The notes under the pieces were generated by a model. It had not been told where the DNA came from. It did not search any database and worked only from the letters and a program-made list of their open reading frames with translations. This document shows positions 1 to 16,796 of a DNA stretch of 44,924 bases, one piece after another (positions within the stretch are counted from its first letter, which is position 1; the number at the start of each line of letters is the position of its first letter). This stretch comes from a virus, in the IMG/VR virus record IMGVR_UViG_3300029480_000006, positions 1-44,924 of that record; one strand, given 5' to 3'. The translations under genes and the position numbers were made by a program.

Positions 1-99
1 TATGTTAACAATGCTATTAATATCATGCAATGTACCATGCTTTGCTAATTCAATACATGATATACAAGACAATATTGGCACAGATAAATTCGCTCACTT
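1..99. repeat. Terminal direct repeat; bases 1-99 are identical to 44826-44924 (circular-genome assembly overlap)
   Basis: Base-by-base comparison of window start and end gives 99/99 identity. Confidence 0.9.
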
Positions 100-4100: not shown

Positions 4101-4156
4101 CTTATACAGCAAAATTTGCTTGTATAAAATAAAAATTTTATAAAGGAGTGTTTTCA

Positions 4157-4693: not shown

Positions 4694-4722
4694 TGCTCCG
4701 TCAATAAAGACGTGATTTTATA

Positions 4723-4747
4723 GGCGGTGTAACAACCGCCTTTTTTA
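4723..4747 (+). terminator. Intrinsic terminator
   Basis: Stem ggcggt/accgcc with loop gtaaca, followed by a T-run. Confidence 0.7.
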
Positions 4748-4770
4748 ATTTAGAAAAGAGGTAATAAAAC

Positions 4771-5139
4771 ATGAGTTGTATCAATAATTGTCAAGTTTGC
4801 CCTAATTTAATAGCTTCTACAAATGTTGCTATTAGTGGCTCTGTACTTCAAATCACAATCCCTACCATGACCATTAACGATAACCAGAAAATCTGCTTAT
4901 TAATTGCCCAATCAATTCCAAGTGGTGCAGGTGTATTGCCAATTAATATTATTAATGGTTCCAATACTTTAACTCTTATTAATAAATGCGGTAAACCAGT
5001 ATATGCAGACCAAATTAGAAGCAGACGTATTTATGTATTATGTGCAAATACTGCTACACCATCTGCTACTGTTAAAACTAATAATCTTTGCCCAACAGCT
5101 TTTGTACCACCACAATTAACAGGTACAGCTACAGCTTGA
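4771..5139 (+). CDS. Hypothetical Cys-rich protein
   Basis: 122 aa. N-terminal CINNCQVC, several further Cys, Thr/Ala-rich C-terminus. Confidence 0.45.
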   Translation: MSCINNCQVCPNLIASTNVAISGSVLQITIPTMTINDNQKICLLIAQSIPSGAGVLPINIINGSNTLTLINKCGKPVYADQIRSRRIYVLCANTATPSATVKTNNLCPTAFVPPQLTGTATA

Positions 5140-5156
5140 TAAGAGGTGAGTAAAAA

Positions 5157-5405
5157 ATGAATAATGGAGCTAGTTTTTTAATAGGTGTTTTGGCTGGATT
5201 TTTTATTTTTACAGAAACAGGTAAAAATATAGCAAACAGCATGGCTAATATAGCAGTAAATCAAGCAGTCCCAGGAGCGACAGCTTTGATGAACGTTGCA
5301 GCTAAAGCAATTAATCCAATACCACCTACAACACCAACTCCAACGCAAGAAGCAGTTAATCCAATTCTTGCAACAAATCCAAAACAGGAGGCAATCAAAC
5401 CATGA
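5157..5405 (+). CDS. Small membrane protein with Pro/Thr-rich tail
   Basis: TM FLIGVLAGFFIFT, then PIPPTTPTPTQEAVNP. Confidence 0.45.
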   Translation: MNNGASFLIGVLAGFFIFTETGKNIANSMANIAVNQAVPGATALMNVAAKAINPIPPTTPTPTQEAVNPILATNPKQEAIKP

Positions 5406-5923
5406 TAGATACAAAATCTTGGACTAAAGAAGCAATGTATCAAAAAGTTTTAGAACACCAAATGCAAGGTGTTATATTCCATAACGATATGATGCTATTT
5501 AATGCCTTCTGCTCCTTAGATTGCTACAGTAAAAAACATAAAGAACAAACCAAAGAAGAACAAGAAAAATTTGAAGAAACACAACTTTATTACTTGCAAA
5601 ATTATGGAAAAATATTAGAAACACCTAAATTTGAAAAATTACAGGTAGTATCTAAACAGCAAGAAGTTATGCGTTATACTCCAGACCAAGTAACCATAGA
5701 ATATAGAAAAAATTTCTTAAAAGAAACTTTTCAGAACTGGAAAAAATGGGAAGAATCCACAATGGAATTATATCTAGCATGCATGCATTACACGCTAGAA
5801 CATCAATGCATGGATTATCTTAAATTCCAGGAACTCTACAAAGATACATTTAAGGAACATAAATATATTCTCAAGGAAATAGAAAAGCTTCAGAAAATAA
5901 ATTATGATGCTAAGCTCTTATAA
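5402..5923 (+). CDS. Hypothetical protein
   Basis: 173-aa ORF translationally coupled (ATGA) to the previous gene. Confidence 0.5.
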   Translation: MIDTKSWTKEAMYQKVLEHQMQGVIFHNDMMLFNAFCSLDCYSKKHKEQTKEEQEKFEETQLYYLQNYGKILETPKFEKLQVVSKQQEVMRYTPDQVTIEYRKNFLKETFQNWKKWEESTMELYLACMHYTLEHQCMDYLKFQELYKDTFKEHKYILKEIEKLQKINYDAKLL

Positions 5924-5927
5924 ATCA

Positions 5928-5960
5928 AGCCCTACCAATAAAGGTAGGGCTTATTTTTTT
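5928..5960 (+). terminator. Intrinsic terminator
   Basis: Perfect 9-bp stem agccctacc/ggtagggct plus ttattttttt. Confidence 0.75.
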
Positions 5961-5983
5961 GCTCAAAAATATTTAAAATATTA

Positions 5984-6012
5984 TTGACACACCACGTTTA
6001 ACGTGGTATATT
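5984..6012 (+). promoter_or_regulatory. Sigma70-type promoter (TTGACA-17-TATATT) with a palindromic operator CCACGTTtaAACGTGG in the spacer
   Basis: Consensus -35 at 5984-5989, 17-nt spacer containing a perfect inverted repeat, and -10 at 6007-6012. Confidence 0.65.
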
Positions 6013-6053
6013 ATAGATGTAAGGTAAATAAAACAAAGAAAGGGGTTACCAAA

Positions 6054-6554
6054 ATGATGAAATTAACAAAACGTGAAATATTCTGGTTAGCACATAAATA
6101 CGCTAAAAGATTAGAAGGCGATTATAAAGCTAGATTTAATTGGAGTTTAAAATTTATTTATGATTGTATTAAGTTAATTAATTCTGAAAACGTAGAATTA
6201 AAAGGTAGCCCTAAACAAGTAAAATGGGCTAATGAAATCAGAGAAAACTTTAATTTTAAGTCCATATTATTTGAAAGATATATGGATGATAATACTTATC
6301 ATTCTTTTAATAATAAAATTTTATTTATCAATCTTGTTAAAAATACTGAAAATGCAAGCTTTATTATAGCTATGTATTTTCAAACTCCTGCTACTTGGTT
6401 TTGCGAATATGTAAAATATATAAATGGCGAAAGCAAAATAATGGAAGTAGGAAAAAAATATGACTCTTCTTTTTTCGTAATTGATGAAGAAGGAAGATTT
6501 TTGCAGTGCGAATGGAATGGAACACTACGCAAAAAGCAATATTTCAATTATTAA
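6054..6554 (+). CDS. Hypothetical protein, first gene of an autonomous three-gene cassette
   Basis: ATG ATG AAA at 6054 with RBS AAAGGGGTT. The track ORF 6003 begins inside the promoter. Confidence 0.5.
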   Translation: MMKLTKREIFWLAHKYAKRLEGDYKARFNWSLKFIYDCIKLINSENVELKGSPKQVKWANEIRENFNFKSILFERYMDDNTYHSFNNKILFINLVKNTENASFIIAMYFQTPATWFCEYVKYINGESKIMEVGKKYDSSFFVIDEEGRFLQCEWNGTLRKKQYFNY

Positions 6555-6569
6555 TATCGAGGTGATCAT

Positions 6570-7127
6570 ATGAATAAAATTAAACAAATGAGAGAAAAAC
6601 TAGGCTGGAGTCGTGCCAAGTTTTGCAGAGAGTTCGGTATTCCAATCCGAACTGTAGAAGATTGGGATAATGAGAGTATATCTAGTTATCCTAAAAGCTG
6701 GGTAGAAAAATTGATTTTAGAAAAGTTAGGAGAAATAGGTATGAAGAAAATGAATTTATATTTCTTTAAAGAAATAAATAAATTTTACGAAGGTAGAACA
6801 TTTTTACCAAAAAGATTAGATAAAATGTTTTATGATAAAACTGATGAAGAAGTATTGAATTTAAAATTTAGCATTGATGATGCTATCGTGATAGCAAATA
6901 GAGCACTTGAATTTGAACGTGAGATGTTTGATAACCAATATGAAAGACAATATGAGTATCTTGATGCTGATTTAAAACTTAAAAGAAAATATTTTGAATT
7001 ATTCAATAAAGAAGCAATGGATTTAAAAACCATTGATATGATAGTTGATATGGTAATATCTTGTGGCGGTGATGATTTAATAATTACAATAAATTTAAAA
7101 AAGAAAATTAAGGAGAATGTAAAATGA
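6570..7127 (+). CDS. XRE-family HTH domain protein with a C-terminal domain of unknown function
   Basis: N-terminus MREKLGWSRAKFCREFGIPIRTVEDWDN is a typical XRE HTH. Confidence 0.55.
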   Translation: MNKIKQMREKLGWSRAKFCREFGIPIRTVEDWDNESISSYPKSWVEKLILEKLGEIGMKKMNLYFFKEINKFYEGRTFLPKRLDKMFYDKTDEEVLNLKFSIDDAIVIANRALEFEREMFDNQYERQYEYLDADLKLKRKYFELFNKEAMDLKTIDMIVDMVISCGGDDLIITINLKKKIKENVK

Positions 7128-8017
7128 TTAAACTAATTAAAACTGAAAAAGGAATAAACATTGGAAAAGAAAAAAGATTGATTGTAGTAAATGATTTGTC
7201 TGAAATAAAAAATATAAATTTAGATGAAGATGAAGAAAAACTTACTTATAAATACTATAATGAAATAGATATTAATAATCCTGTATTAGATGATTCTATA
7301 AAACATTTGGAGGATTTATGGAAAAAATTAAAAGAAGAAATACAAAGCCTAACTTTATTTGAAGCAATAGAGAAAACGTTCTATTATATAGACTATATAT
7401 TTCGTTTAAATGATTCTTATAAAAATAATGAAGGTAAGATATGTCTACCATTAATACTAGAACCATACTCGGAAGAAGTAATTATTTATGTAATAGATAG
7501 CTGTATTAATGGCAAGATAAAAGGTAAATTTATAGTGGAAAAAGCCACAGATGAAATGATGTCATTTGCTAAAAGAAGAAACAACGAACTTGAATATGTT
7601 GATTGGAAAGATGATATTATTGATAATATTGCTAGTGATTTTCATAGTAATAGTTATTATGGAATTATAGCTATGGAAAAATTGATTGAATTAATCGAAA
7701 ATAAAAATCTTGAAGAGGCTATAGACAAGACGATTGACTTCTTATTTAATGATGAAGATATGTTGAAATATATATATTTATCAAGTTCAATGACAGAAAA
7801 TAAAGTTAGTCTCTCTTTTTATACAAATAGTCTAGGAGATAAATTTATTAAGAGAGAGCCTAAAAGCATTTATAGAGATTTTGTGATTTATAAGAATATC
7901 CCAGTTTATAAAATGGAAATTAGTGCATCTTTTTATGAAATAGAAATAGATGAGAATGGTTTTGATGTACGCAAAGAATTATCAAAAGAACAAATAGAAT
8001 TAGTAATAGGAAAATAA
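7124..8017 (+). CDS. Hypothetical protein (297 aa)
   Basis: ORF overlaps the upstream stop (ATGA), implying an operon. Confidence 0.5.
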   Translation: MIKLIKTEKGINIGKEKRLIVVNDLSEIKNINLDEDEEKLTYKYYNEIDINNPVLDDSIKHLEDLWKKLKEEIQSLTLFEAIEKTFYYIDYIFRLNDSYKNNEGKICLPLILEPYSEEVIIYVIDSCINGKIKGKFIVEKATDEMMSFAKRRNNELEYVDWKDDIIDNIASDFHSNSYYGIIAMEKLIELIENKNLEEAIDKTIDFLFNDEDMLKYIYLSSSMTENKVSLSFYTNSLGDKFIKREPKSIYRDFVIYKNIPVYKMEISASFYEIEIDENGFDVRKELSKEQIELVIGK

Positions 8018-8020
8018 AAA

Positions 8021-8046
8021 AAGAGCTACTATTTAGTAGCTCTTTT
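8021..8046 (+). terminator. Intrinsic terminator
   Basis: Perfect 9-bp stem agagctact/agtagctct followed by cttttg. Confidence 0.6.
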
Positions 8047-8164
8047 GATGTTATCTTACACTTTCCATAGGCTTATTCATATTCAAATACATTATAATGT
8101 TATAGTTAATAAATAGAAAGCGTAAGAACTGCATTAATATTTATATTTAAATTATACAACAAAA

Positions 8165-8193
8165 TTGACAATAGGTCTAATTTAATATATTAT
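8165..8193 (+). promoter_or_regulatory. Sigma70-type promoter (TTGACA-17-TATTAT) reading into an ORF-free structured region
   Basis: Consensus -35 at 8165-8170, -10 at 8188-8193. Confidence 0.5.
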
Positions 8194-8199
8194 AGAAGC

Positions 8200-8733
8200 G
8201 TAGACAATTTTCTTAACAATCAAATAAAAAGTTTTTAGAAATAAAAAAGACCAAACGTGTTGGTAGCACGATTGGTCTTGCCGAACAACCTACCGCAAAT
8301 AAGTTGTCCGAGTTGTTTTCTAAACTCATTATACTTATATATTAGCGATATGTCAACGACATATCATAAATTATTAATGATTTTAGGTAGGAATAGTAGG
8401 CACATTATAGCATTATCCCATTTTTCCAATGTCGGAAAAATGGTGAAGATGTTGTGATGTGTTTTTTAGTATCTAAAATCACTTGGCGGAATAAACGTCA
8501 AGAGCGTGCCTAGATGCTTATTCTAGGAGAGCGAGAGCTACACTTGGCGGAGTGTATAAATAAGTGGTTGCAGAAAGTAACCAACCGTATCACCAGCGGA
8601 GGCGGAAAATCGGTGGGGCATTTGGATATATTCTACTATCCAAATTTACCTAAGAGGGCGGAATGTTGTTAAACTCCCTTAATAAGCCTAAGTAAATAAG
8701 AACTCATGAGAGCCGTTTAGACGGCTTTTTTTA
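8200..8733 (+). ncRNA. Candidate large structured non-coding RNA (about 530 nt, promoter to terminator); strand and ends uncertain, may extend to about 9100
   Basis: No ORF >=60 aa on either strand in 8458-9109. GC clearly above the genome background. Many perfect hairpins, e.g. agaccaa..ttggtct, gatatgtcAACgacatatc, atttggata..tatccaaat. Upstream promoter and a downstream terminator. Confidence 0.4.
8711..8733 (+). terminator. Intrinsic terminator inside the ORF-free region
   Basis: Stem agccgt/acggct with loop ttag, then ttttttt. Confidence 0.7.
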
Positions 8734-9109
8734 TTTGAGTAATATATTTATATGGTTAAAAGTAGACAACGGTGGTTAAAGGCAACGTAAGTTGCAGATT
8801 GGGATTGTAGCATAAGCTATAAGCCGTATTAGGATAACATACGGAAACGTATGGTGGTTGGGGCAATTAAGTAACCATTAATATCCTACCTGTGTAAAAG
8901 CAGGAACTAGTAGAAAACTGGACTGGCAGACGCAAGAAAACCAGGCGTAAAAATATAGTTATATCTTTAGTAGAACGCTAAAGGTATAACTATACCTAGA
9001 ACACGGCTCCGCAATCCTCCCAAGCGTAATCGTTTTTGGGTTAGAAGTAAAGCCAAAGTTAGTGCCTAGTTTAAATAAATTTATATATACCAAGAAAGAA
9101 GATGAGTAG

Positions 9110-9298
9110 ATGCCAACGATAAAAGAAATAAAAGCTATAGCAAAAGATAGAGCTGTAAATCTACCAAAGAAAGCTAGAAAAGCCGATATGATACATATAT
9201 TGCAGGAGCAAGAGGGAAATAATCCTTGTTATGCTACTAAACAATGTAATATAGATGTGTGCCTTTGGTATAAAGATTGCCAAAAAGCTATAAAATAA
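9110..9298 (+). CDS. Small protein with Rho-N/HeH-like N-terminus and Cys-rich C-terminus
   Basis: MPTIKEIKAIAKDRAVNLPKKARKADMIHIL resembles the Rho N-terminal/HeH motif. Four Cys in the last 30 aa. Confidence 0.45.
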   Translation: MPTIKEIKAIAKDRAVNLPKKARKADMIHILQEQEGNNPCYATKQCNIDVCLWYKDCQKAIK

Positions 9299-9382
9299 TA
9301 GCCTGTATAAGCTGTTTAAAATCTTTGTAGGTATAAATACATTAAGATAAAAATAAAACAGCTATAAATGGATAAAAAATAA

Positions 9383-9422
9383 GAGCCTAACACTAATTTA
9401 TGTGCTAGGCTCTTTTATTATT
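9383..9422. terminator. Bidirectional terminator between convergent genes
   Basis: Hairpin agagcctaacac..gtgctaggctct flanked by an A-run and a T-run. Confidence 0.55.
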
Positions 9423-9669
9423 TTAGTACATATTCTTTTAATGCGTTAACTATATAATTATTTACGCTTCGACCATCAATTTTAGCTTTTTTTTCTATGA
9501 TTTCAAATAATTTTGGACCAATGACTATTAATTTCTTTTTTGTTTGTTTTTCATAATCAAGAATTTCTTTTAGATTTTTTTTATCTGTTATTACTTCAGG
9601 TTCTGGTTTGTTATCATCTAAACCTAATAGCATATCTGCTGGATTATCAAAAGTTTTAAAGTTGTCCAT
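9418..9669 (-). CDS. Ribbon-helix-helix partition/centromere-binding protein (ParG/omega-like)
   Basis: 83 aa immediately downstream of parA. C-terminus GRSVNNYIVNALKEYV is RHH-like (type Ib partition partner). Confidence 0.55.
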   Translation of the reverse strand: MDNFKTFDNPADMLLGLDDNKPEPEVITDKKNLKEILDYEKQTKKKLIVIGPKLFEIIEKKAKIDGRSVNNYIVNALKEYVLK

Positions 9670-10400
9670 TATTTATCCTCCAATATTTCTTTTACTAATG
9701 CTCTATAATCTCGACCAGCTGTAGAATATCTAGCATATCTAAATATGTCAGTCATTTTTGCTTGGGACTCTTTTATAGAAATGCTATCTCTTATTGTAGT
9801 ACTAAATACTTTTGTATTTAATCTTTTTGCTATATCAATAAGACTATTTAACATAGATTTTCCTAATATAGTTCGTTTGTTAAATCTAGTTATTAAAATA
9901 CCTTTTATACTAAGATTTTTATTAGATGTTTTTTGTATAGCTTGTACAGTTTTGTATAAATCAACTAAACCTTGCATTGGTAATAAATCTGCTGTAGTAG
10001 CAATTATTATAGAATTACTAGCAGTCAAAGCATTTAATGTAATTATTCCTAATGCTGGAGGAGTATCTATAATTACATAATCATAGTTGTTTTTCATCAC
10101 GCTTAAGATGTTTTTTAATACAGATTCCATACCAGATTTATTTTGTAGTAAGACTAGATTTTTCGATCCAGCAATAAAATCGTTTTCTATTGCTTCATCA
10201 ATTTTTATTTTACCAGTGAGTACATCTAAAATATCATGAGTATTTTTAGTTGCTTGCTGTAATAAAGTTAAATTGCATTGTGCATCTAAATCTAGCAATA
10301 ATACTTTTTTATTTTGCAATCTTAAACCTGCTGTTAAATTTTGGGCAGTTGTTGTTTTTCCAACTCCGCCCTTTTGATTTATTATAGAGATAATTTCCAT
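9669..10400 (-). CDS. parA: ParA/Soj-family partition ATPase (small type Ib ParA); true start is at the Met of MEIISIINQKGGVGKTT
   Basis: Deviant Walker A KGGVGKTT. RBS GGAGTG upstream of the ATG at 10400. The 48-codon N-terminal extension in the track ORF runs through AT repeats and is an artefact. Confidence 0.9.
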   Translation of the reverse strand: MEIISIINQKGGVGKTTTAQNLTAGLRLQNKKVLLLDLDAQCNLTLLQQATKNTHDILDVLTGKIKIDEAIENDFIAGSKNLVLLQNKSGMESVLKNILSVMKNNYDYVIIDTPPALGIITLNALTASNSIIIATTADLLPMQGLVDLYKTVQAIQKTSNKNLSIKGILITRFNKRTILGKSMLNSLIDIAKRLNTKVFSTTIRDSISIKESQAKMTDIFRYARYSTAGRDYRALVKEILEDK

Positions 10401-10535
10401 AATATCACTCCTTATATGTGGTATATATATATTATATAATATATATATAGAAATGCAATATATAATATATATAAAGTATATATAATATATATATACTTTA
10501 TATATATTATATAACACTATATATAGTGGTTTTTG
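10401..10535. repeat. AT-rich repeat/palindrome field upstream of parA (candidate parS centromere and promoter)
   Basis: Degenerate ATATATAAT-type repeats and the perfect palindrome aaagtatatat..atatatacttt. Confidence 0.6.
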
Positions 10536-10608
10536 CAAACTCAATCAAAGTCAGTCAGATTTTATAAAAAATCCATTTAGAGAATACATATTTTAAGCAA
10601 AATAAAAA

Positions 10609-10655
10609 AGGTAGATACTAGATATTGTGTTTCTAGCATCTACCTTAAATTTTTA
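10609..10655 (-). terminator. Intrinsic terminator for the minus-strand lipoprotein gene
   Basis: Hairpin ggtagatactaga..tctagcatctacc with a T-run on the minus strand. Confidence 0.55.
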
Positions 10656-10686
10656 ACTTCCTATTTCTTACAAAATATGAAGTTGA

Positions 10687-11253
10687 TTATAAAGAGTCAT
10701 CAATTGGTTTCCAGTTAGCTTTTATATCTTCATATGGCATTTTTATTTGTTCTTTAACAGCTAATACCAAATCATCTGGTATTGTGGTAGTTCTATTTAT
10801 TCTAGAAACGCAATCAAATTTAAGTTTTACTTCATTGGCTGTAGATAGTTTTTGAATTATTTCTTTATTTAAATTGAAATATCTAAAATTACTATGTTGA
10901 ACAACGTTATTTAATGATGATGTATCAATTAATGTTTGTCCAGCTTCTAGATATCTATAATCTGGATTTTTTAAAGCTACTACAGGATATTCAATACCAT
11001 CTATTATAAAAGTAGCATAAGGTAAGATTTTATCTTCATCTTTTCTTTTATCCATTCTAAACCAGTACATATCTTCTGTTGGTGTAGAATATTTTACAAA
11101 ACAAAGACCGAGATTAGCTCTAATACTTTGTACGCTTAAAGAGTAAGCGTTGTCCCATTCTGGTTCGTATGCTGTTCGTACATGTGCAAAACAACTAGAT
11201 ACCATTAATAAAATAAAAATAGAGCATAAAACAAGACTTCTCAAATAATACAT
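10687..11253 (-). CDS. Secreted lipoprotein (moron next to the repressor)
   Basis: Signal peptide MYYLRSLVLCSIFILLMVSSC with lipobox MVSSC. Confidence 0.55.
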   Translation of the reverse strand: MYYLRSLVLCSIFILLMVSSCFAHVRTAYEPEWDNAYSLSVQSIRANLGLCFVKYSTPTEDMYWFRMDKRKDEDKILPYATFIIDGIEYPVVALKNPDYRYLEAGQTLIDTSSLNNVVQHSNFRYFNLNKEIIQKLSTANEVKLKFDCVSRINRTTTIPDDLVLAVKEQIKMPYEDIKANWKPIDDSL

Positions 11254-11313
11254 AAAAACACTTCCTTCTATATTTATAGTATTATCTTAACATTTATATT
11301 ATTTTTATCAATA

Positions 11314-11346
11314 AAAAAGGCCACCATTAAAGGTGGTCTTTTTTTA
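11314..11346. terminator. Bidirectional intrinsic terminator
   Basis: Stem aaggccacc/ggtggtctt flanked by poly-A and poly-T. Confidence 0.6.
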
Positions 11347-11811
11347 TGCCCTTTTTTCTGTGGAATTGTCGATAGTATTTGTAGTAGTGGAAGCTATATA
11401 TTCGTTTTTTTCCTCTGCTACTTTTAATTCATTTGCTACCTGTTCTAATTTTTCATTATAAGTTTTTTCATCATCAGATTTTGAGCTTTTGTTAATTAAT
11501 TTATTCTGGGTGCTTAATAATTCTTTAGCCATTTTAAATAGATATTCTTGTGTTTCAGGTTCAAGTGAGTTAAGAATTTCAGTTAATTCTTTTTCATAAG
11601 GTGAACATGAAAAAATAGAGCCTTTTCCAGTTTGTAGCCAATTTTCAGAGATATTAAATGTTTTACATATTACTTTAATATGTCTTTCTGATAAAGGGTT
11701 TCTACCATTTTCAATCATTGAATATCCTGTTTGAGTTAATCCAAGATATTTAGCAAAAGCACTTTGATTTAATCCAAGAGCTTTTCTTGCTTGTTTTAAT
11801 CTTTGTAACAT
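11344..11811 (-). CDS. Phage repressor (XRE/CI-like HTH, no peptidase domain)
   Basis: N-terminal HTH LGLNQSAFAKYLGLTQTGYSMIENGRNPL. Divergent from the + strand early genes across an operator region. Confidence 0.75.
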   Translation of the reverse strand: MLQRLKQARKALGLNQSAFAKYLGLTQTGYSMIENGRNPLSERHIKVICKTFNISENWLQTGKGSIFSCSPYEKELTEILNSLEPETQEYLFKMAKELLSTQNKLINKSSKSDDEKTYNEKLEQVANELKVAEEKNEYIASTTTNTIDNSTEKRA

Positions 11812-11832
11812 ATAATCACTCCTTTTTTCTTT

Positions 11833-11876
11833 ATGTTAAAATTTTAACATAAAATTAATACAATGTAAAAGAAAAA
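11833..11876. promoter_or_regulatory. Two palindromic operators in the divergent repressor/early promoter region
   Basis: atgttaaaattttaacat (perfect 9-bp arms) and aagttaataaaaattaactt (perfect 8-bp arms). Confidence 0.6.
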
Positions 11877-11930
11877 TAACATAAAGTTAATAAAAATTAA
11901 CTTTGTATTAATAAAAATGAGGTGAATTAT

Positions 11931-12065
11931 ATGAAAAAAGATTATGTAGATGAAACAATTAAAATCTTTAAACAGTTAAATCCAGAAAATCAAAGATATT
12001 TTTTATCTCTGGTAAAAGTTGCTCAAGTAGCGGAAACAAATGCTAAAAATAAAAAAATAGCATGA
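11931..12065 (+). CDS. Small early protein (44 aa), first gene rightward of the switch
   Basis: RBS GAGGTG 7 nt upstream of the ATG. Below the 60-aa track cutoff. Confidence 0.4.
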   Translation: MKKDYVDETIKIFKQLNPENQRYFLSLVKVAQVAETNAKNKKIA

Positions 12066-12128
12066 TTAGGTTTAAAAACAGCATAAAAAAAGCAAGTAGA
12101 TATATAGAGAGATGATGACGATAAAGGT

Positions 12129-12746
12129 ATGAACGAAACGTTCACCCCTGCTGGTGGAAAACAACAAACATTATTTATAAACGAAAGTGGTTTATATAGT
12201 TTAGCACTTTCTTCAAAATTACCGAAGGCTAAAGAATTTAAACGTTGGATTACAAAAGAAGTTATACCTTCAATTAGAAAATATGGTGGTTATATTGCTA
12301 AACCACTAAATCAGCTTGATATTCTTGAAAAATCTATTCAAATAATGAAAGAACAGCAAAGAAGATTAGAAGAACATGATAATCGTCTTGCTAAGATTGA
12401 ATCTAATATTGAGCAGATAAAAGAACTCGAACAAATAAATGCCAGTAATTGGCGTCTATATTTTGGTTCAGTAACGAGAAAAATTGCAAAATATTATCCT
12501 TGCTTAGATATGGAAAATCCATATCAAGCAATTCGCCATGAGTTTTACGAACGTTTAGAAGCAGAAGCTCGTTGTGATTTAGATAGAAGATTAAAAAACA
12601 AGAAAGAAAGAGCTTATAAAGCTGGATTAAATAAAAATAAAATAAAAGAAATTAATAAACTCGATATTATCGAGGAAGATGCCAGGCTTATTAATAGTGC
12701 AATAGCAGTATTAAAGAAGATGTCGATACAGTATGGCATAAACTAG
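12129..12746 (+). CDS. Antirepressor-like protein retaining only the C-terminal half of a Bro-N domain (5'-truncated)
   Basis: GGKQQTLFINESGLYSLALSSKLPKAKEFKRWITKEVIPSIRKYGGYI matches the Bro-N C-terminal half. The N-terminal half is absent. Confidence 0.6.
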   Translation: MNETFTPAGGKQQTLFINESGLYSLALSSKLPKAKEFKRWITKEVIPSIRKYGGYIAKPLNQLDILEKSIQIMKEQQRRLEEHDNRLAKIESNIEQIKELEQINASNWRLYFGSVTRKIAKYYPCLDMENPYQAIRHEFYERLEAEARCDLDRRLKNKKERAYKAGLNKNKIKEINKLDIIEEDARLINSAIAVLKKMSIQYGIN

Positions 12747-12762
12747 AAAGGGGAAAAATAAA

Positions 12763-13107
12763 ATGATGATGCAATTAAAATATCTTGAAGCTATCAGAGA
12801 AATGGAGAAAGGTAATGTAGTTCTTCATTTTGATAAAAAAGATAATAAATTTCAGTTTTTAAAAATGGAAGAAGGAACTTTATTTAATGCTGAAACAGCG
12901 GAAGTAGTTGATTGGTGTACAGTAACACCTAAAGATGGATTTGCTCTATTAATTAAGAGAAAAAAGATAGACTTCGTGAGAATTGAATTTGCTTACGAAG
13001 GTGATGAAGAAACTAGAGTAGTTGATTTTCTTGATGAAAATTTTCACAAAATAAAAAAAGAGCATGGCATAGATTTACCAGCTCTTATAGAAAAGATAGT
13101 TAAGTAG
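12763..13107 (+). CDS. Hypothetical protein
   Basis: 114-aa ORF with RBS AAAGGGGAAAAATAAAATG. Confidence 0.5.
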   Translation: MMMQLKYLEAIREMEKGNVVLHFDKKDNKFQFLKMEEGTLFNAETAEVVDWCTVTPKDGFALLIKRKKIDFVRIEFAYEGDEETRVVDFLDENFHKIKKEHGIDLPALIEKIVK

Positions 13108-13144
13108 AAACACAAAGCGTTCTACTGGCTTAAAAAAATGGCGA

Positions 13145-13179
13145 AGCCCTTAGATTATTCGCAGTAATCTAAGGGCTTA
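13145..13179. repeat. Perfect 14-bp-stem hairpin upstream of rep (candidate RCR double-strand origin)
   Basis: aagcccttagatta-ttcgcag-taatctaagggctt. Confidence 0.6.
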
Positions 13180-13320
13180 AAACTAACCACATATAAAGTT
13201 TAATTAAATTATATATCAATAATGGTTAGGTGTCAATTTTTAAGCGTTCGGTGGAGCGTTTTGTGGACCTGCTAAAGGTATTATTTTAACAGGAAAATAA
13301 AAACAAGGAGGCTTAGAAAT

Positions 13321-14172
13321 ATGGCACTAGTGCAGAAAAAGGTATATGGAAAAAATTATATAGACCAGTTCCAATATTATAGTGGCAGATATGGAAAGAA
13401 TATACCTAATGGCCCTGCACTAGGTAAAACACCGCTGAAGCAGTTGCGTTACCAAGATAAAAAAGCAGAGCGTAACTGCCGATACAAAATTAATGAAAAT
13501 TTTGAGGGTGGAGATTTATTCTTAACGCTAAATTATCCACCACATAAAAAAATAGATATAAATGTGGCCAGAAAAAATATTAATACATTTCTAGACACAG
13601 TGAGAAAAATATATAAGCGAGAAGAAAAAAAGCTCAAGTATATTTACGTGGCTGGCATCACAAAAAAAGGTATGATACATTTCCACATTGTGATGAACAA
13701 GCACGATACTGATGTACTAACTAAAGCATGGCAAAGAATAGTTGGTACAGAAGAATGTAAATACCCAAGAGTAACGATAAGACATTTAGATTACAGTGGG
13801 GAATACAAAAAGCTGGCTTCTTACTTAATAAAAAATAGTAGGGAGCAATTTTACAGAAAGGAAAAGGTGCATAAGAAAAGATTTTGTGCATCTAAGAATT
13901 TAAAAATGCCATTAGTAACCACCAAAGTTATAAAAAATAATAGATGGTGGAACATGGCAACAAAAAAAGCCCCAAAAGGCTACATCATAGATAAAAATAG
14001 TATTTATGATGGTTATGGCTGGGCAGATAATGGTGGCTATTATGAATGTTGCAGAGTACAAAGAATAACCATGTATAGAATAGATAGCCAGTATCAGAAA
14101 TTTAAAAAGAGTAAGTACAGAAAGCCTTTGGAAAACATAGATGTACCAGAGGTAATAGAAGATTGGGGTTAA
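13321..14172 (+). CDS. rep: Rolling-circle replication initiator (HUH endonuclease Rep)
   Basis: Motif I FLTLNY, motif II HFHIVMN (HUH), motif III Y..ASYLIK (YxxK), in the canonical order. Confidence 0.75.
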   Translation: MALVQKKVYGKNYIDQFQYYSGRYGKNIPNGPALGKTPLKQLRYQDKKAERNCRYKINENFEGGDLFLTLNYPPHKKIDINVARKNINTFLDTVRKIYKREEKKLKYIYVAGITKKGMIHFHIVMNKHDTDVLTKAWQRIVGTEECKYPRVTIRHLDYSGEYKKLASYLIKNSREQFYRKEKVHKKRFCASKNLKMPLVTTKVIKNNRWWNMATKKAPKGYIIDKNSIYDGYGWADNGGYYECCRVQRITMYRIDSQYQKFKKSKYRKPLENIDVPEVIEDWG

Positions 14173-14502: not shown

Positions 14503-15243
14503 ATGAGTAATTATGGTGCATTTAATTTAAGACACTTAGCAAAAGGTCTTAAATATATAAATAACTTAAAGCTAGAAGAATTAGGAATAACAGCCAATCA
14601 AGTAAAAGTTTTAAAAAGCTGGCTTAAAATAACTGGTTTGAGTAATGGTAAGAAGTTAACATCACTAGGAAATATCATCAAAAAACATGATAGGTTTCTA
14701 GAAGAAGATATAACTATGCAAGTTCTTCACTACAAAATTTTAACTGCTGATAAAGACAGTATTTGGCAGTTTATATTTAAACTAGATGATTTTGATAAAC
14801 AGTATGTAATGAAGGAATTATCTGTTAAATATGAATTTAAGTCTGATTTAATAGTGGCAGATTTAAATGTATTGCTAAATATGTATATTCCTAAAATAGC
14901 AGAAAAAGAAAGCATGAATAGAGCTTTATTGCCATTAATAAGAAAACAGGGGGATTTCTATTGCAAAAGAGAGTACAAGCCTAATATATGGGTAGCATTA
15001 GCAATAATAATAGATAATCTACCAGAACCAACGCTAGATAATAATGCATCATGGTTAGAATTTAACACAATATATTCAACATTTAAAAATGTTTTTGGCT
15101 TGGAATATAGAACAGTGGAAGATATTTTATATAAATTACAAAATATGAGATTTGTAAAAATAAGAAAATCACATATAGAAATATCATGCAATTATACATT
15201 TTTAGATTGTATAGAAAAAGCATATAAAGAACTGGAGGTATAA
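14503..15243 (+). CDS. Hypothetical protein (246 aa)
   Basis: ORF with RBS. No domain recognised. Confidence 0.5.
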   Translation: MSNYGAFNLRHLAKGLKYINNLKLEELGITANQVKVLKSWLKITGLSNGKKLTSLGNIIKKHDRFLEEDITMQVLHYKILTADKDSIWQFIFKLDDFDKQYVMKELSVKYEFKSDLIVADLNVLLNMYIPKIAEKESMNRALLPLIRKQGDFYCKREYKPNIWVALAIIIDNLPEPTLDNNASWLEFNTIYSTFKNVFGLEYRTVEDILYKLQNMRFVKIRKSHIEISCNYTFLDCIEKAYKELEV

Positions 15244-15245
15244 AC

Positions 15246-15782
15246 ATGGATAGAAGTCTAAGAGGTCTTATCAATAATAAGAATGGAGCCTTATTTGAAA
15301 GTGAAATAATTGGCGGTTGCATGAAATATAACCTACAAGAAAGAGCCTTTATAGAAAAGACACCAGAACCATTTAAGGTATCAAAACCTTTGGAAAATGG
15401 ATTTTTTAAAGGTAGATTTACTTCTAAATCACAGCCAGATTTCAAAGGAACGCTCAAAGACGGATTATCTATAGTTTTTGAAGCTAAGTATACATCTACA
15501 GATAAAATTCGTGCAGATGTGCTTACAGAAAATCAAATGGAGTGCCTAGAAAAGCACTATAAATTAGGAGCTATAACAGGTGTAGTAATAGGAATACAAG
15601 ACCAATTTTTCTTTGTTCCGTGGAAGTTGTGGAGACTTGTTTACGAGCAATACAGACGCCAGTATTTAAGACCAGAAGATATACAAGCCTATAGAGTTAA
15701 ATTTAATGGCAACGTAAATTTTCTAGATTTAAAAAATGGCGGAAAAGTAGAACGAATAGAGGAATACAGGAGGGAAAATTGA
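15246..15782 (+). CDS. recU: RecU-like Holliday-junction resolvase
   Basis: GALFESEI, KTPEPFKV, DF.G....G.SIVFEAK and QFFFVPW motifs match the RecU family pattern. Confidence 0.7.
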   Translation: MDRSLRGLINNKNGALFESEIIGGCMKYNLQERAFIEKTPEPFKVSKPLENGFFKGRFTSKSQPDFKGTLKDGLSIVFEAKYTSTDKIRADVLTENQMECLEKHYKLGAITGVVIGIQDQFFFVPWKLWRLVYEQYRRQYLRPEDIQAYRVKFNGNVNFLDLKNGGKVERIEEYRREN

Positions 15783-15913
15783 TGATAAATAAAGATATTG
15801 AATATCTAAAGAAAAGAAGAAGAACGGAATTAATATGTAAAATAAGCCTACTATTAACAGCAATAGTAGGAACGATTATGGCGGTGAACTTAATTGCGAA
15901 TACTATTGATTGA
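15782..15913 (+). CDS. Small membrane peptide (43 aa)
   Basis: ATGA overlap with the recU stop, RBS AGGAGGG, and TM LLLTAIVGTIMAVNLIA. Below the track cutoff. Confidence 0.4.
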   Translation: MINKDIEYLKKRRRTELICKISLLLTAIVGTIMAVNLIANTID

Positions 15914-16796
15914 TATAGACAGCCATAATTTTCCTAATTTAGCATTGATGAAGCTTTCATCATATTTTAAAAGCAACAATCATAATGTTAGTTTTTTGAA
16001 ATTATCAAAAGATGATAAGAAAAACATATTACAAGGACAGATGCCTTTTTTCAAAGATGAATTTGATGGTATTTTGGCTGCTTGCGTCTTTGAAGAAAAT
16101 AAAGAAATAGCTAATGCACTTATAGATTATGGAGTTATTGTTGGCGGTACAGGATTAACTTTAAATCCTAGATGTAATTTACCATCCAAAATTGAAAATT
16201 CATATCCAGATTATGATTTATACAATATAAAAGATGTGGCATATGGATTTCTTACTCGTGGCTGTCCTCGCAATTGCCCATTTTGCATAGTTGGTAAAAA
16301 AGAAGGCAGTATATCAGTAAAAGTTGCGGATTTAAATCAATTTTGGAATGGTCAAAAAGTAATAAAATTACTAGATCCAAATCTATTAGCATGTAGTGAA
16401 CATATGGATTTACTAAAGCAACTTGCAAATTCTGGTGCATATGTAGACTTTACACAAGGTCTTGATGCTAGGTTAATAACAAAAGAGAATATAGAGGTTT
16501 TAAAGAAAATAAAAGTAAAAGCTTTTCACTTTGCGTGGGATAATCCACATGATGAAAAGATAAAAGAAAAGTTTTTATTTATAAGAAAGAATTTTAAGTT
16601 ACATCCTAGATATTTTAAGGTGTATGTACTTACGAATTACTGGAGTGATTTAAAAGAAGATTTAGATCCATATATAATGATTTTTAATAAATCAAACGCT
16701 CCCAAAGAAATAAAACATCTTCAACGTTGGGTAAATAATAAAATTATTTTCAATAGCGTTGATAAATTTGAAGATTACGATTATAAACGAGGCTAA
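15894..16796 (+). CDS. Radical SAM enzyme with N-terminal B12-binding/MTTase-like domain (about 300 aa; TTG start uncertain)
   Basis: CxxxCxxC at C124/C128/C131 (RGCPRNCPFC, nt 16263-16286). N-terminus ILLIDID...NLALMKLSSYF resembles a B12-binding or UPF0004 fold. Confidence 0.7.
   Translation: MRILLIDIDSHNFPNLALMKLSSYFKSNNHNVSFLKLSKDDKKNILQGQMPFFKDEFDGILAACVFEENKEIANALIDYGVIVGGTGLTLNPRCNLPSKIENSYPDYDLYNIKDVAYGFLTRGCPRNCPFCIVGKKEGSISVKVADLNQFWNGQKVIKLLDPNLLACSEHMDLLKQLANSGAYVDFTQGLDARLITKENIEVLKKIKVKAFHFAWDNPHDEKIKEKFLFIRKNFKLHPRYFKVYVLTNYWSDLKEDLDPYIMIFNKSNAPKEIKHLQRWVNNKIIFNSVDKFEDYDYKRG

What the first reader, a model, noticed from the sequence alone, without database searches (positions are those of the whole stretch)
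9418..14172. Phage-plasmid lifestyle: ParA + RHH partition pair and HUH rolling-circle Rep, with no integrase anywhere in a complete genome
A small ParA (Walker A KGGVGKTT), a downstream RHH protein and an AT-rich palindromic repeat field form a type Ib partition cassette. An HUH Rep with motifs FLTLNY / HFHIVMN / YLIK lies 3 kb away, preceded by a perfect 14-bp hairpin. No tyrosine or serine recombinase is identifiable among the ORFs, and the genome is closed by the terminal repeat. A lambda-like virion module maintained as a partitioned, rolling-circle-replicating episome in a low-GC host is an uncommon combination.
Basis: partly seen in the sequence, partly recalled or inferred. Interest (0 to 1): 0.6.

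Follow-up and report, generated by a model that had tools for sequence, protein, structure and literature searches.

The report
Likely plasmid-prophage of gut Megamonas
This is the complete 44.8-kb genome of a common human-gut tailed phage, probably of Megamonas, that has no integrase but carries a plasmid-type partition cassette, so it probably persists as a plasmid; this lifestyle is already known in other bacteria.

Summary
The window is a circularly closed 44,825-bp phage genome with a lambda-like virion module. It has a CI-like repressor, a self-contained parA/RHH cassette with an AT-rich repeat array, and an HUH Rep (PF23343). No tyrosine or serine recombinase was found in any frame.

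This Rep is not a plasmid marker. It has no hit in PLSDB and is the shared initiator of a group of Negativicutes/Clostridia temperate phages and small islands, many of which carry integrases. The "14-bp hairpin" is the predicted terminator of a conserved leftward small RNA. The likely nick site is a conserved CTTG(A/T)TAA..TATTA box just upstream of rep. Rep has no recognisable promoter of its own, so Rep-driven plasmid-state replication is not shown.

The plasmid case rests on four points: no integrase; a par cassette sitting where relatives have int; ParA 53% identical to a Megamonas plasmid ParA; and dozens of stand-alone 40-45 kb contigs.

Next to par lies a covariation-supported non-coding RNA module shared with Megamonas plasmids. 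It is a candidate RNA-based prophage replicon, as in parABS mycobacteriophages.

Verdict: new member of a known kind, moderate interest. The extrachromosomal state is unproven.

The parts
1..99 (.). Exact 99-nt terminal repeat (copy 2 at 44826-44924). It is an assembly overlap that closes a 44,825-bp circular or circularly permuted genome.
   Evidence: Independent contigs of 40-45 kb that break at different positions.
8163..8735 (+). Non-coding RNA module shared with Megamonas plasmids. Conserved + promoter at 8165..8193, predicted transcript of about 535 nt from about 8200. Its 3' domain (8486-8735) is a covariation-supported multi-hairpin RNA ending in the terminator 8708-8729. Candidate RNA-based plasmid-state replicon (inferred).
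   Evidence: promoter invariant in 7 variants, and the homology block starts exactly at the -35 box; 19 of 55 pairs with compensatory changes in 10 sequences; homologue in plasmid NZ_CP048628.1 and related plasmid-like contigs. No Rfam family.
8240..8356 (-). Predicted antisense RNA of about 80 nt. Perfect sigma-70 promoter at 8356..8328, start near 8321, two hairpins and a U-run (terminator hairpin 8247-8279). Complementary to the 5' part of the long sense RNA.
   Evidence: 12/12 promoter. (both hexamers invariant; hairpin shows compensatory changes). (fold z = -5.17).
9110..9298 (+). 62-aa ORF with a weak Rho_N/SAP-like match. It belongs to the conserved 8163-9380 block. Its homologue on the Megamonas plasmid sits next to a serine recombinase (resolvase) gene.
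   Evidence: Rho_N 5.5e-4, below cut-off.
9381..9414 (-). Intrinsic terminator that closes the parA-RHH operon.
   Evidence: 13-bp stem plus T-run on the minus strand.
9418..9669 (-). 83-aa partner of ParA. Disordered N-terminal tail plus a C-terminal ribbon-helix-helix-like domain (about residues 45-83). Predicted centromere-binding protein and autorepressor.
   Evidence: phrog_582 Arc-like, 1.4e-6. (37% identity over 38 aa to the HicB/RHH domain of the plasmid ParA partner). (weak Arc/AvtR matches). (AF2 low confidence: inconclusive).
9669..10400 (-). ParA, 243 aa. Deviant Walker A KGGVGKTT at residues 10-17, no N-terminal DNA-binding domain (type Ib size class).
   Evidence: 53% identical to the ParA of the Megamonas funiformis conjugative plasmid.
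10413..10544 (-). par operator/centromere-like region. Promoter-like site 10544..10516 is followed by six overlapping copies of TATATAATATATATA in both orientations (10424-10513).
   Evidence: A similar TATA-repeat field lies upstream of the plasmid parA.
10610..10644 (-). Terminator of the cI/lipoprotein operon. It makes parA-RHH a separate transcription unit.
   Evidence: Sequence read directly; inverted repeat I17.
10687..11253 (-). 188-aa predicted lipoprotein (signal peptide with VSSC lipobox). Alleles vary among relatives. Likely a prophage-expressed exclusion-type gene (inferred).
   Evidence: sequence; phrog_36074, unknown function; variable alleles of 188/214/228/232 aa.
11344..11811 (-). 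CI-like HTH repressor. Alleles vary among relatives, as expected for an immunity region.
12129..12746 (+). Antirepressor-like protein (BRO-N family) in the rightward early operon.
13133..13236 (-). Conserved leftward small RNA gene upstream of rep. Promoter TTGACA-17-TATAAT at 13236..13208, start near 13201. Predicted length about 70 nt, antisense to any read-through rep leader.
   Evidence: promoter with 17-nt spacer and at least 10/12 matches; at -79..-123 from the rep ATG in 11 of the 17 loci scanned (these 11 include the window and the near-identical L002) and at -183 in one more; hairpin directly followed by a U-run in about 8 of 12 loci, with different stem sequences; U-run offset or weak in the window, L002, L068 and L033. 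(z = -4.02).
13183..13229 (+). Inverted repeat CTAACCA / TGGTTAG bracketing the small-RNA -10 box. An equivalent hairpin with different arm sequences is present in other Rep lineages.
13242..13293 (+). Predicted double-strand origin. Short GC hairpin plus T-run (13242-13263), then the conserved box CCTGCTAAAGGTATTATTTTAACAGG (13268-13293) with mini-hairpin ACCT-GCTAA-AGGT. The consensus in relatives is CTTG(A/T)TAA(A/G)..TATTA, which resembles the pC194/phiX174 CTTG|ATA nick site (own knowledge).
   Evidence: the box is the only conserved block in an alignment of 13 lineages whose Reps are only 27-76% identical to the window's..
13321..14172 (+). HUH rolling-circle-type Rep, 283 aa. Motif I FLTLNY, HUH HFHIV, and YLIK with a single catalytic Tyr.
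   Evidence: AF2 pLDDT 78.9. Weak Foldseek matches enriched for HUH nucleases: Helitron, AAV Rep, NS1, circovirus Rep.
15246..15782 (+). RecU-type Holliday-junction resolvase. It travels with rep in the window lineage and both Megamonas sister lineages; some more distant Rep-bearing loci have no RecU hit.

Best explanation
The window is the complete genome of a temperate, cos-type (lambda gpA terminase) siphovirus-like phage of Megamonas or a related Negativicute. It has no integration machinery.

Its lysogeny side reads leftward: CI-like repressor, lipoprotein, then an independent autoregulated parA-RHH operon with an upstream repeat array. This operon occupies the position where related phages carry an integrase.

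Most likely, after infection the cos ends close the genome into a circle. CI shuts off the rightward early operon. The circle is then kept as a low-copy plasmid prophage: the RHH protein binds the TATATAATATATATA repeats and the small Walker-type ParA segregates the copies (type Ib mechanism).

The HUH Rep with its RecU partner is the phage's general replication initiator, inherited with the early operon. It probably nicks the conserved CTTG-type box 30-55 nt upstream of its own gene. Its dose is probably gated by a conserved leftward small RNA and a terminator-like hairpin in the leader.

Which replicon runs in the plasmid state is unresolved. It is either leaky, small-RNA-controlled Rep expression, or the par-adjacent sense/antisense RNA module that the phage shares with Megamonas plasmids.

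Shown: gene content, motifs, repeats, RNA covariation, absence of recombinases, distribution of relatives.
Inferred: plasmid state, centromere binding, nick site, small-RNA function, host.
For: Genome completeness and recombinases:
- Closed genome.
- No recombinase by Pfam/PHROGs or by a six-frame search with 22 recombinases from relatives.
- No dif-like site and no tRNA.

Temperate features and the par cassette:
- Repressor and antirepressor are present.
- ParA, its RHH partner and the repeat array form a unit bounded by terminators.

Plasmid ancestry of the 8.2-10.5 kb block:
- ParA is 53% identical to that of the Megamonas funiformis plasmid NZ_CP048628.1.
- The adjacent non-coding RNA module is homologous to that plasmid family.

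Comparison with relatives:
- Relatives with the same Rep-RecU core have a large serine or a tyrosine integrase on the leftward side, where this lineage has par.

Contig evidence:
- The exact ParA sequence sits on at least 20 contigs, none above 50 kb and 16 of 20-50 kb (those shown measure 40.0-45.1 kb).
- Those inspected are permuted differently and show no host flank. The same holds for the Rep contigs shown and for IMG/VR and metagenome hits.

Host:
- The closest genomic Rep relatives are all Megamonas, then Dialister and Pectinatus.
- An Rz-like spanin fits a diderm host.

Precedent:
- About 20% of cluster A mycobacteriophages replace int with parABS and replicate as plasmids. Most of these use a par-proximal non-coding RNA (PMC7157519; PMC7969092).
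Against: - No direct observation of an extrachromosomal lysogen. Metagenome contigs of free or induced phage would also assemble as stand-alone circles.
- Sister lineages carry ParA or TubZ together with integrases, and one of them sits in a 2.37-Mb contig. Partition genes in this phage group therefore do not by themselves imply a plasmid state.
- A sublineage with 76%-identical Rep has ParA-RHH and also a tyrosine recombinase.
- No promoter for rep independent of the early operon was found, and no iterons or DnaA-box cluster. A plasmid-state replicon is therefore not identified with certainty.
- The RHH fold was not confirmed by structure prediction.
- Two contigs of 50-200 kb (the longest 74,274 bp) that carry the 97%-identical Rep could not be inspected.
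- About half of the left-arm ORFs have no detectable family.
Confidence: 0.6

Rival explanations
1. The phage does not form stable plasmid lysogens. It is effectively lytic or pseudolysogenic (a former temperate phage that lost int). ParA-RHH then serves another purpose, such as positioning replicating genomes during lytic growth or regulating transcription.
For: Integrase-bearing sister lineages also carry ParA (next to Rep-RecU) or TubZ. These segregation proteins therefore have a role that does not require a plasmid prophage. High-coverage stand-alone contigs (for example cov 167 and 343) fit active virion production. Rep lacks its own promoter.
Against: The par operon is a terminator-bounded unit on the lysogeny strand beside cI, not in the early lytic operon as in the sister lineages. 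The cassette and the neighbouring RNA module come from Megamonas plasmids. The repressor, the antirepressor and the variable immunity alleles are retained across many samples.
Confidence: 0.2
2. The prophage integrates into the chromosome without an integrase of its own. It would use host XerCD, a helper element's recombinase, the HUH Rep itself, or an unrecognised recombinase among the ORFs of unknown function.
For: Many ORFs have no family. HUH enzymes and XerCD-exploiting elements exist (established knowledge: CTXphi, AAV Rep, IS91). Two long contigs carrying the near-identical Rep were not inspected.
Against: No dif-like site and no tRNA or att-like repeat. No host-flanked contig among the more than 60 loci examined for this lineage. 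The par cassette would then be superfluous.
Confidence: 0.1
3. One reading: the 45-kb episome is replicated in the prophage state by the HUH Rep through rolling-circle replication from the 14-bp hairpin.
For: Rep is the only recognisable initiator protein in the genome. A conserved antisense-type small RNA upstream of rep resembles copy-number control of rolling-circle plasmids.
Against: The hairpin differs in sequence between lineages and in most of them is followed by a U-run on the minus strand, so it reads as a terminator. The conserved nick-type box lies elsewhere. This Rep family is absent from PLSDB plasmids and is used by integrating phages and islands. No promoter independent of the repressed early operon was found. 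Rolling-circle plasmids are usually far smaller (established knowledge).
Confidence: 0.2

Closest known systems
parABS cluster A mycobacteriophages (RedRock, Alma, LadyBird; Wetzel et al. 2020, PMC7157519)
   Same: Temperate siphoviruses in which the integration cassette is replaced by a partition cassette. A non-coding, transcribed region next to par is the prophage replicon in most of them. Related phages in the same cluster keep an integrase.
   Different: They have type Ia-like ParA/ParB with parS, an actinobacterial host and no HUH Rep. Here the system is a small ParA with an RHH partner, the host is a Negativicute, and the plasmid state and RNA-replicon function are only inferred.
Type Ib partition systems (TP228 ParF-ParG-parH, pSM19035 delta-omega, pB171 par2)
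   Same: Small ParA with a deviant Walker A and no N-terminal DNA-binding domain. Small RHH partner encoded immediately downstream. Repeat array upstream of the operon that overlaps its promoter.
   Different: No detectable sequence similarity of the 83-aa protein to ParG or omega. The repeats are an AT-only 15-mer. DNA binding and ATPase stimulation are untested.
Megamonas funiformis conjugative plasmid NZ_CP048628.1 and related 45-60 kb plasmid-like contigs
   Same: ParA 53% identical, with an RHH (HicB-family) partner downstream and a TATA-rich repeat field upstream. Homologous structured non-coding RNA with conserved promoters.
   Different: The plasmid has a type IV secretion system, a relaxase and two par operons, and no virion genes. 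On the plasmid, iterons (5x CTACTAAAAG) lie beside the RNA; the phage has none.
HUH rolling-circle initiators: Pfam PF23343 (plectrovirus ORF2/G2P), pC194/pUB110 Rep, phiX174 gpA, P2 gpA
   Same: HUH and Tyr motifs. Predicted nick box of the CTTG|ATA type close to the gene. P2 is a precedent for an HUH initiator in a tailed temperate phage.
   Different: Single catalytic Tyr in a YxxK motif, against the two tyrosines of gpA. No solved structure is detectable by sequence. Here the gene is embedded in a 45-kb dsDNA phage with a RecU partner and an upstream small RNA.
P1 / N15 / Clostridium botulinum c-st phage-plasmids
   Same: Tailed temperate phages maintained extrachromosomally with dedicated segregation systems. 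c-st uses TubZ, as the sister lineages here do.
   Different: They have different replicons (RepA, primase-helicase), and for them the plasmid state is demonstrated experimentally.
Antisense-RNA replication control (pT181/pIP501 attenuation; ColE1 RNA I/RNA II)
   Same: A short countertranscript with a terminator hairpin faces the rep leader, which contains a terminator-like hairpin. Separately, a long sense RNA has a roughly 80-nt antisense RNA against its 5' part, next to par.
   Different: No expression data. An alternative-pairing (antiterminator) logic could not be derived. The long RNA ends in an intrinsic terminator, unlike ColE1 RNA II.

Membership tests
Type Ib plasmid partition system | Small ParA-type ATPase (about 190-310 aa) with deviant Walker A KGGxxK[ST] and no N-terminal HTH domain | tested here: met
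   243 aa; KGGVGKTT at residues 10-17; AAA_31 4e-44 covering residues 1-165; phrog_164. Below NCBIfam equivalog cut-offs, so it is a superfamily member, not a named equivalog.
Type Ib plasmid partition system | Small ribbon-helix-helix centromere-binding protein encoded directly downstream | tested here: inconclusive
   83 aa, with its start overlapping the parA stop. phrog_582 Arc-like 1.4e-6. Aligns to the HicB/RHH domain of the plasmid partner, E 1e-4. No Pfam hit above cut-off. AF2 pLDDT 62 with no beta strand predicted.
Type Ib plasmid partition system | Repeat array (centromere/operator) upstream of the operon | tested here: met
   Six copies of a 15-mer in 10424-10513, against 0.27 expected in the whole window. 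They lie between a promoter-like site and the parA ATG.
Type Ib plasmid partition system | Stabilises an unstable replicon in vivo | not testable with these tools
   Needs a plasmid-stability assay.
HUH rolling-circle Rep (Pfam PF23343 REP_ORF2-G2P) | Match to the family model above its gathering score | tested here: met
   49.7 bits against 27.8, residues 66-172; phrog_3584 full length, 1.4e-41.
HUH rolling-circle Rep (Pfam PF23343 REP_ORF2-G2P) | Conserved HUH metal-binding motif and catalytic Tyr | tested here: met
   H120, H122, Y168 and K171 invariant in 21 sequences down to 25% identity.
HUH rolling-circle Rep (Pfam PF23343 REP_ORF2-G2P) | HUH endonuclease fold | tested here: inconclusive
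   AF2 pLDDT 78.9. Foldseek against PDB gives no hit at E<=1e-3. The weak top hits are enriched for HUH nucleases: Helitron, AAV Rep68, NS1, circovirus Rep, with probabilities 0.9-1.0.
HUH rolling-circle Rep (Pfam PF23343 REP_ORF2-G2P) | Cognate nick site (double-strand origin) near the gene | tested here: inconclusive
   The conserved box CTTG(A/T)TAA..TATTA is found upstream of rep in 13 lineages. Cleavage is untested, and the resemblance to the pC194/phiX174 site comes from memory.
Phage-plasmid (sensu Pfeifer et al. 2021) | Complete virion, packaging and lysis gene set | tested here: met
   TerS/TerL gpA, lambda-type portal, protease-capsid, tube, tape measure, gpL/gpJ-like proteins, spanin.
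Phage-plasmid (sensu Pfeifer et al. 2021) | Plasmid partition and/or replication functions | tested here: met
   The ParA cassette is homologous to that of a Megamonas plasmid. The Rep is not of plasmid type.
Phage-plasmid (sensu Pfeifer et al. 2021) | No integration module in a complete genome | tested here: met
Phage-plasmid (sensu Pfeifer et al. 2021) | Prophage observed as an extrachromosomal replicon in a lysogen | not testable with these tools
   Only indirect evidence: more than 60 loci of this lineage were examined and none is host-flanked; the contigs are 40-47 kb. No isolate genome with this lineage was found in one genome per species.
Antisense-RNA-controlled rep (pT181/pMV158 type) | Countertranscript gene (promoter plus terminator) opposite the rep leader | tested here: met
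   12/12 promoter and a hairpin plus U-run in the window. The promoter is conserved, with a 17-nt spacer, in 12 of the 17 loci scanned (11 at -79..-123, one at -183; the 11 include the window and near-identical L002). A hairpin-then-U-run terminator is clear in about 8 of those 12. This is prediction only.
Antisense-RNA-controlled rep (pT181/pMV158 type) | rep mRNA overlaps the countertranscript, and its fate depends on it | not testable with these tools
   Overlap is inferred because no rightward promoter lies between the small RNA and rep. RNA-seq or reporter assays are needed.
RNA-based (initiator-free) plasmid replicon (ColE1-like; non-RepA parABS phages) | Long sense RNA with a short antisense RNA against its 5' part, adjacent to par | tested here: met
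   Conserved convergent promoters at 8165..8193(+) and 8356..8328(-). Antisense fold z = -5.17. Structured 3' domain with 19 covarying pairs.
RNA-based (initiator-free) plasmid replicon (ColE1-like; non-RepA parABS phages) | The segment supports autonomous replication | not testable with these tools
   Needs cloning into a non-replicating vector in Megamonas.

The most novel reading that the evidence does not exclude
The roughly 1.2-kb non-coding block next to par (8163-9380) consists of a roughly 535-nt structured sense RNA and a roughly 80-nt antisense RNA, and is shared with Megamonas conjugative plasmids that have no recognisable Rep. On this reading it is an initiator-protein-free, RNA-based plasmid replicon. 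The phage would then be a dual-replicon phage-plasmid: RNA-primed replication plus ParA/RHH segregation in lysogeny, and HUH-Rep rolling-circle replication after induction. This would be the first RNA-based prophage replicon outside Actinobacteria and would identify the replicon of a family of gut Negativicutes plasmids.
Probability: 0.25. Interest if true: 0.7.

Novelty: new member of a known kind. Interest (0 to 1): 0.4.

Why it matters
- Megamonas is an abundant human-gut genus with almost no characterised phages or genetic tools. This phage lineage recurs in dozens of independent gut metagenomes.
- If it is a plasmid prophage, it extends the int-to-par swap seen in mycobacteriophages to Negativicutes.
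- It would also provide candidate parts for Megamonas genetics: a par cassette, an RNA module and a Rep/origin cassette.
- For annotation pipelines: an HUH Rep or a ParA/TubZ gene in a phage of this group is not by itself a plasmid marker, because integrating relatives carry both.

Tried and rejected
- Megablast of 9-16 kb against GenBank phages: no match.
- Rep against PLSDB by tblastn: no match. This rejects a plasmid origin for Rep.
- TerL against PLSDB: identity at most 33%, so no deposited plasmid is this phage.
- Rfam at gathering and E-value thresholds: nothing credible. No tRNA or tmRNA.
- dif-like site search: 0 matches. DnaA boxes: 12 against 15.9 expected and not clustered. Iterons in 8018-9110: none.
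- AF2 of the 83-aa protein with 4 sequences: pLDDT 62, so not used for fold search. Only 3 homologues were found in the large protein database.
- PDB sequence searches gave nothing significant for the RHH protein or the Rep profile.
- The first alignment of 21 Reps was too diverse for the locus scan; it was redone with 13.
- I considered the 14-bp hairpin as the double-strand origin. I rejected this because its sequence is not conserved between lineages while its position after a conserved leftward promoter is.
- I considered the small RNA as a single-strand-origin primer RNA. I did not favour this because the promoter is a canonical double-stranded one and the flanking inverted repeat does not make its hexamers double-stranded.
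- I tried to derive a terminator/antiterminator switch in the rep leader and found no convincing alternative pairing.
- PADLOC on the cargo ORFs gave only an SspB-like match for DUF4007.
- The 74-kb contig carrying the 97%-identical Rep could not be retrieved.

Full report
**1. What the window is**

The first and last 99 nt are identical. The sequence is therefore a closed 44,825-bp genome of about 30% G+C.

The right two thirds encode a lambda-type virion module:
- small terminase and gpA-type large terminase;
- lambda-family portal;
- a fused S78 protease-capsid protein;
- tube, an SLT-containing tape measure, and gpL- and gpJ-like tail proteins;
- a pectate-lyase-like fibre.

An Rz-like spanin points to a diderm host. 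No tRNA and no Rfam family is present. GenBank phages hold nothing close: megablast finds nothing, and the best TerL identity is 40-46%.

**2. Check of the observation**

ParA is 243 aa when started at the ATG at 10400. The mechanical ORF from the TTG at 10544 runs through the repeat field and is not the gene; relatives are also called at 243 aa. ParA hits AAA_31, CbiA and phrog_164 strongly and has the deviant Walker A motif at its N-terminus.

The 83-aa gene overlaps the parA stop. Pfam is silent, but phrog_582 (Arc-like) scores 1.4e-6. Residues 40-77 align with the HicB-family RHH domain of the protein encoded downstream of the closest plasmid ParA. AlphaFold with only four sequences was too uncertain to use. 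I treat the RHH assignment as probable, not proven.

Upstream of parA, the 15-mer TATATAATATATATA occurs six times in both orientations within 90 bp, against 0.27 expected in the whole window.

The cassette is a self-contained unit. It consists of a terminator of the cI operon (10610-10644), a promoter-like site (10544..10516), the repeats, parA, the RHH gene, and a terminator (9414..9381).

Rep matches PF23343 above its gathering score and phrog_3584 over its full length. H120, H122, Y168 and K171 are invariant in 21 homologues. An AlphaFold model (pLDDT 78.9) gives only weak Foldseek hits, but these are enriched for HUH nucleases.

The 14-bp hairpin is exact.

**3. No integrase**

Pfam and/or PHROGs were run on every ORF of 171 aa or more that is not nested antisense inside a longer gene, and on most smaller gene-like ORFs. 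They returned no tyrosine or serine recombinase, transposase or protelomerase.

As a more sensitive and lineage-appropriate test, I took 22 recombinase ORFs from related phages and searched all six-frame ORFs of at least 40 aa of the circularised genome. There was no hit, even at E = 10. A tyrosine recombinase found later in a sublineage also has no counterpart in the window. A dif-type site for host XerCD is absent.

**4. What relatives show**

Rep homologues and their genomic contexts define a phage group whose constant core is rep followed by recU.

| Lineage | Rep identity to window | Where found | Accessory genes |
|---|---|---|---|
| Window lineage | >=96% | Dozens of human-gut assemblies | parA-RHH beside cI; no recombinase seen |
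| Sublineage | 76% | IMG/VR and metagenome contigs | A diverged parA-RHH allele plus a tyrosine recombinase between the tail-fibre and lysis genes |
| Megamonas lineage | about 53% | Megamonas MAG contig and IMG/VR | Large serine recombinase on the lysogeny side; parA downstream of rep-recU |
| Megamonas lineage | 46-49% | Megamonas genomes, IMG/VR, a 2.37-Mb contig | TubZ immediately upstream of rep; in several contigs a tyrosine integrase 8-10 kb further left |
| Cellulosilyticum lentocellum prophage | about 36% | Integrated in a 4.7-Mb chromosome | int, rep, parA and a ParB_N gene |
| Small integrative islands (about 10 kb) | about 46% | Chromosomal contigs | int, regulators and rep only |

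Cultured phages with this Rep include the integrase-bearing C. scindens phage phiCs5676-1. Rep has no homologue in PLSDB.

Two conclusions follow:
- Rep is a phage and satellite initiator, not a plasmid marker.
- A segregation gene in this group can coexist with integration.

What distinguishes the window lineage is the complete absence of a recombinase, together with the placement of par as an independent operon on the repressor side.

**5. Evidence bearing on the plasmid state**

The exact ParA protein is encoded on at least 20 contigs. None exceeds 50 kb and 16 fall in the 20-50 kb class. Those listed measure 40.0-45.1 kb, break at different points of the circle, and carry phage genes to both ends. 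The Rep, IMG/VR and metagenome hits behave the same way.

This is what a plasmid prophage would give, but so would free virions, so it is only supportive. Two longer contigs with the 97%-identical Rep could not be examined.

The best ParA match anywhere in PLSDB is a 46-kb conjugative plasmid of Megamonas funiformis, at 53% identity. That plasmid has an RHH partner downstream and a similar TATA-rich field upstream. The nearest genomic Rep relatives are all Megamonas, followed by Dialister and Pectinatus. The host assignment is therefore reasonably firm.

**6. Anatomy of the rep cassette**

I compared the 330 nt upstream of rep in lineages whose Reps are only 27-76% identical to the window's. 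A fixed architecture emerges.

(a) A leftward sigma-70 promoter with a 17-nt spacer and at least 10/12 matches. It lies at -79 to -123 from the ATG in 11 of the 17 loci scanned (these 11 include the window and the near-identical L002) and at -183 in one more. In the window it is a perfect TTGACA-17-TATAAT.

(b) About 25 nt downstream of that start, a strong hairpin whose sequence differs between lineages. In about 8 of the 12 promoter-bearing loci a U-run on the minus strand follows it directly; in the window, L002, L068 and L033 the U-run is offset or weak. This gives a roughly 70-nt small RNA.

(c) An inverted repeat bracketing the -10 box, with different arm sequences in different lineages.

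(d) A short GC hairpin followed by T's.

(e) The only block conserved at sequence level: CTTG(A/T)TAA(A/G)..TATTA, 30-55 nt before the ATG. It can form a mini-hairpin with G(A/T)TA in the loop. From my own knowledge this resembles the CTTG|ATA nick site of pC194-type plasmids and phiX174, so I propose it as the double-strand origin.

No rightward promoter of even 9/12 exists between the upstream gene and rep. Rep is therefore probably transcribed by read-through from the CI-controlled early operon, through the region complementary to the small RNA. This fits antisense dosing of Rep, but I could not derive an attenuation switch.

It also means that Rep expression in a repressed lysogen is not assured.

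**7. The non-coding block next to par**

The region 8018-9109 has no credible ORF and is conserved in every relative of the lineage. In variants with different left neighbours, the homology begins exactly at the -35 box of a conserved rightward promoter, 8165..8193.

A perfect leftward promoter (8356..8328) is equally invariant. It would give a roughly 80-nt RNA with two hairpins and a U-run (z = -5.2), antisense to the 5' part of the rightward transcript.

The 3' domain of that transcript (8486-8735) is a multi-hairpin RNA ending in a strong terminator. In ten variants, 19 of 55 predicted pairs show compensatory double changes. It matches no Rfam family.

The same RNA occurs in the M. funiformis plasmid and in related 45-60 kb plasmid-like contigs. 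There it lies beside iterons and a second par operon, and no Rep gene is annotated.

In IMG/VR the motif is confined to the par-RHH phage lineage and is absent from the integrase-bearing sister lineages. It therefore travels with par, not with rep.

In cluster A mycobacteriophages that replaced int by parABS, a par-proximal non-coding RNA region is required for prophage replication (PMC7157519). By analogy this block is a candidate plasmid-state replicon. I give this about one chance in four. Alternatives are a regulatory or anti-plasmid RNA, or a type I toxin-antitoxin-like stabiliser.

**8. Verdict**

The lifestyle inference is the best available reading (about 0.6) but is unproven.

In kind, this is a new member of the known class of phage-plasmids in which a partition cassette stands in for an integrase. 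It occurs here in a host clade, Negativicutes, for which I found no described example. The conserved rep cassette and the plasmid-shared RNA module are the parts most worth following up.

Noticed in passing
window 8163-9380 (core RNA 8486-8735; antisense 8240-8356): A conserved non-coding block. It holds a roughly 535-nt sense RNA with a covariation-supported structured 3' domain and a roughly 80-nt antisense RNA, both driven by invariant consensus promoters. It is shared with Megamonas conjugative plasmids and has no Rfam family.
   Followed up: partly
window 13133-13236 (-); equivalents in L012, L017, L031-L034, L038, L068, L085, L089: A small RNA gene (consensus promoter, roughly 70 nt, terminator hairpin) is conserved in position but not in stem sequence. 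It lies upstream of rep in phage lineages whose Reps are only 27-76% identical to the window's.
   Followed up: partly
L012, L031, L032, L034, L077-L087 (TubZ); L033, L071-L076, L086 (ParA plus serine recombinase); L013 (int + Rep + ParA + ParB_N): Sister phage lineages place a tubulin-like TubZ or a ParA directly beside rep while also carrying integrases, and one sits in a 2.37-Mb contig. Segregation genes therefore coexist with integration in this group. This raises the question of whether these phages alternate between integrated and episomal states.
   Followed up: partly
L012 about 9720-9850 and L034/L077/L080 about 9680-9780 (between tubZ and rep): Tandem repeats of about 11 bp of the type (A/T)ATCCGAGTA lie between tubZ and the small-RNA terminator. 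They look like a tubC-type centromere or Rep iterons.
   Followed up: no
L092 4878-5981 (-) = IMGVR_UViG_3300029561_000114: The sublineage with 76%-identical Rep carries a 362-aa tyrosine recombinase between the tail-fibre and lysis genes, in addition to ParA-RHH. It could be a dimer resolvase, a fibre-switching recombinase or an integrase. It has no counterpart in the window.
   Followed up: partly
L017-L020 (contigs of sample series ERZ272475xx): Integrative elements of about 10 kb with an integrase, Bro/Ant-type regulators and this Rep, but no virion genes, inserted next to molybdopterin genes. They look like phage satellites that use the same replication module.
   Followed up: no
window 14503-15243 and 15894-16796; L002-L004 537-4439; L027 4995-8896: The gene after rep is DUF4007 / SspB-like (PADLOC 5.7e-12) and is followed by a radical-SAM-like protein. 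Close relatives instead carry an SNF2 helicase, a PAPS-reductase/DUF3440 protein and a ParB_N protein in the cargo arm. This suggests a phage-borne Ssp/Dnd-like DNA-modification module.
   Followed up: no
window 27623-29500: A single 625-aa ORF fuses an S78 prohead protease domain to the major capsid domain.
   Followed up: no
window 9110-9298 and L001 5981-6190: A 62-aa ORF with a weak Rho_N/SAP-like match is 70% identical at DNA level to a gene that sits next to a serine recombinase (resolvase) on the Megamonas plasmid. In the phage it is preceded by about 350 nt of further GC-richer, hairpin-rich non-coding sequence (8740-9080).
   Followed up: no
window 3400-8017: A cargo arm of about ten ORFs with no detectable family, replaced wholesale in close relatives. 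It is a variable region between the lysis genes and the RNA/par block.
   Followed up: no
window 11826-11849 and 11882-11903: Two perfect palindromes (TTATGTTAAAATTTTAACATAA and AAAGTTAATAAAAATTAACTTT) in the cI / early-operon divergent promoter region. They are likely operators.
   Followed up: no
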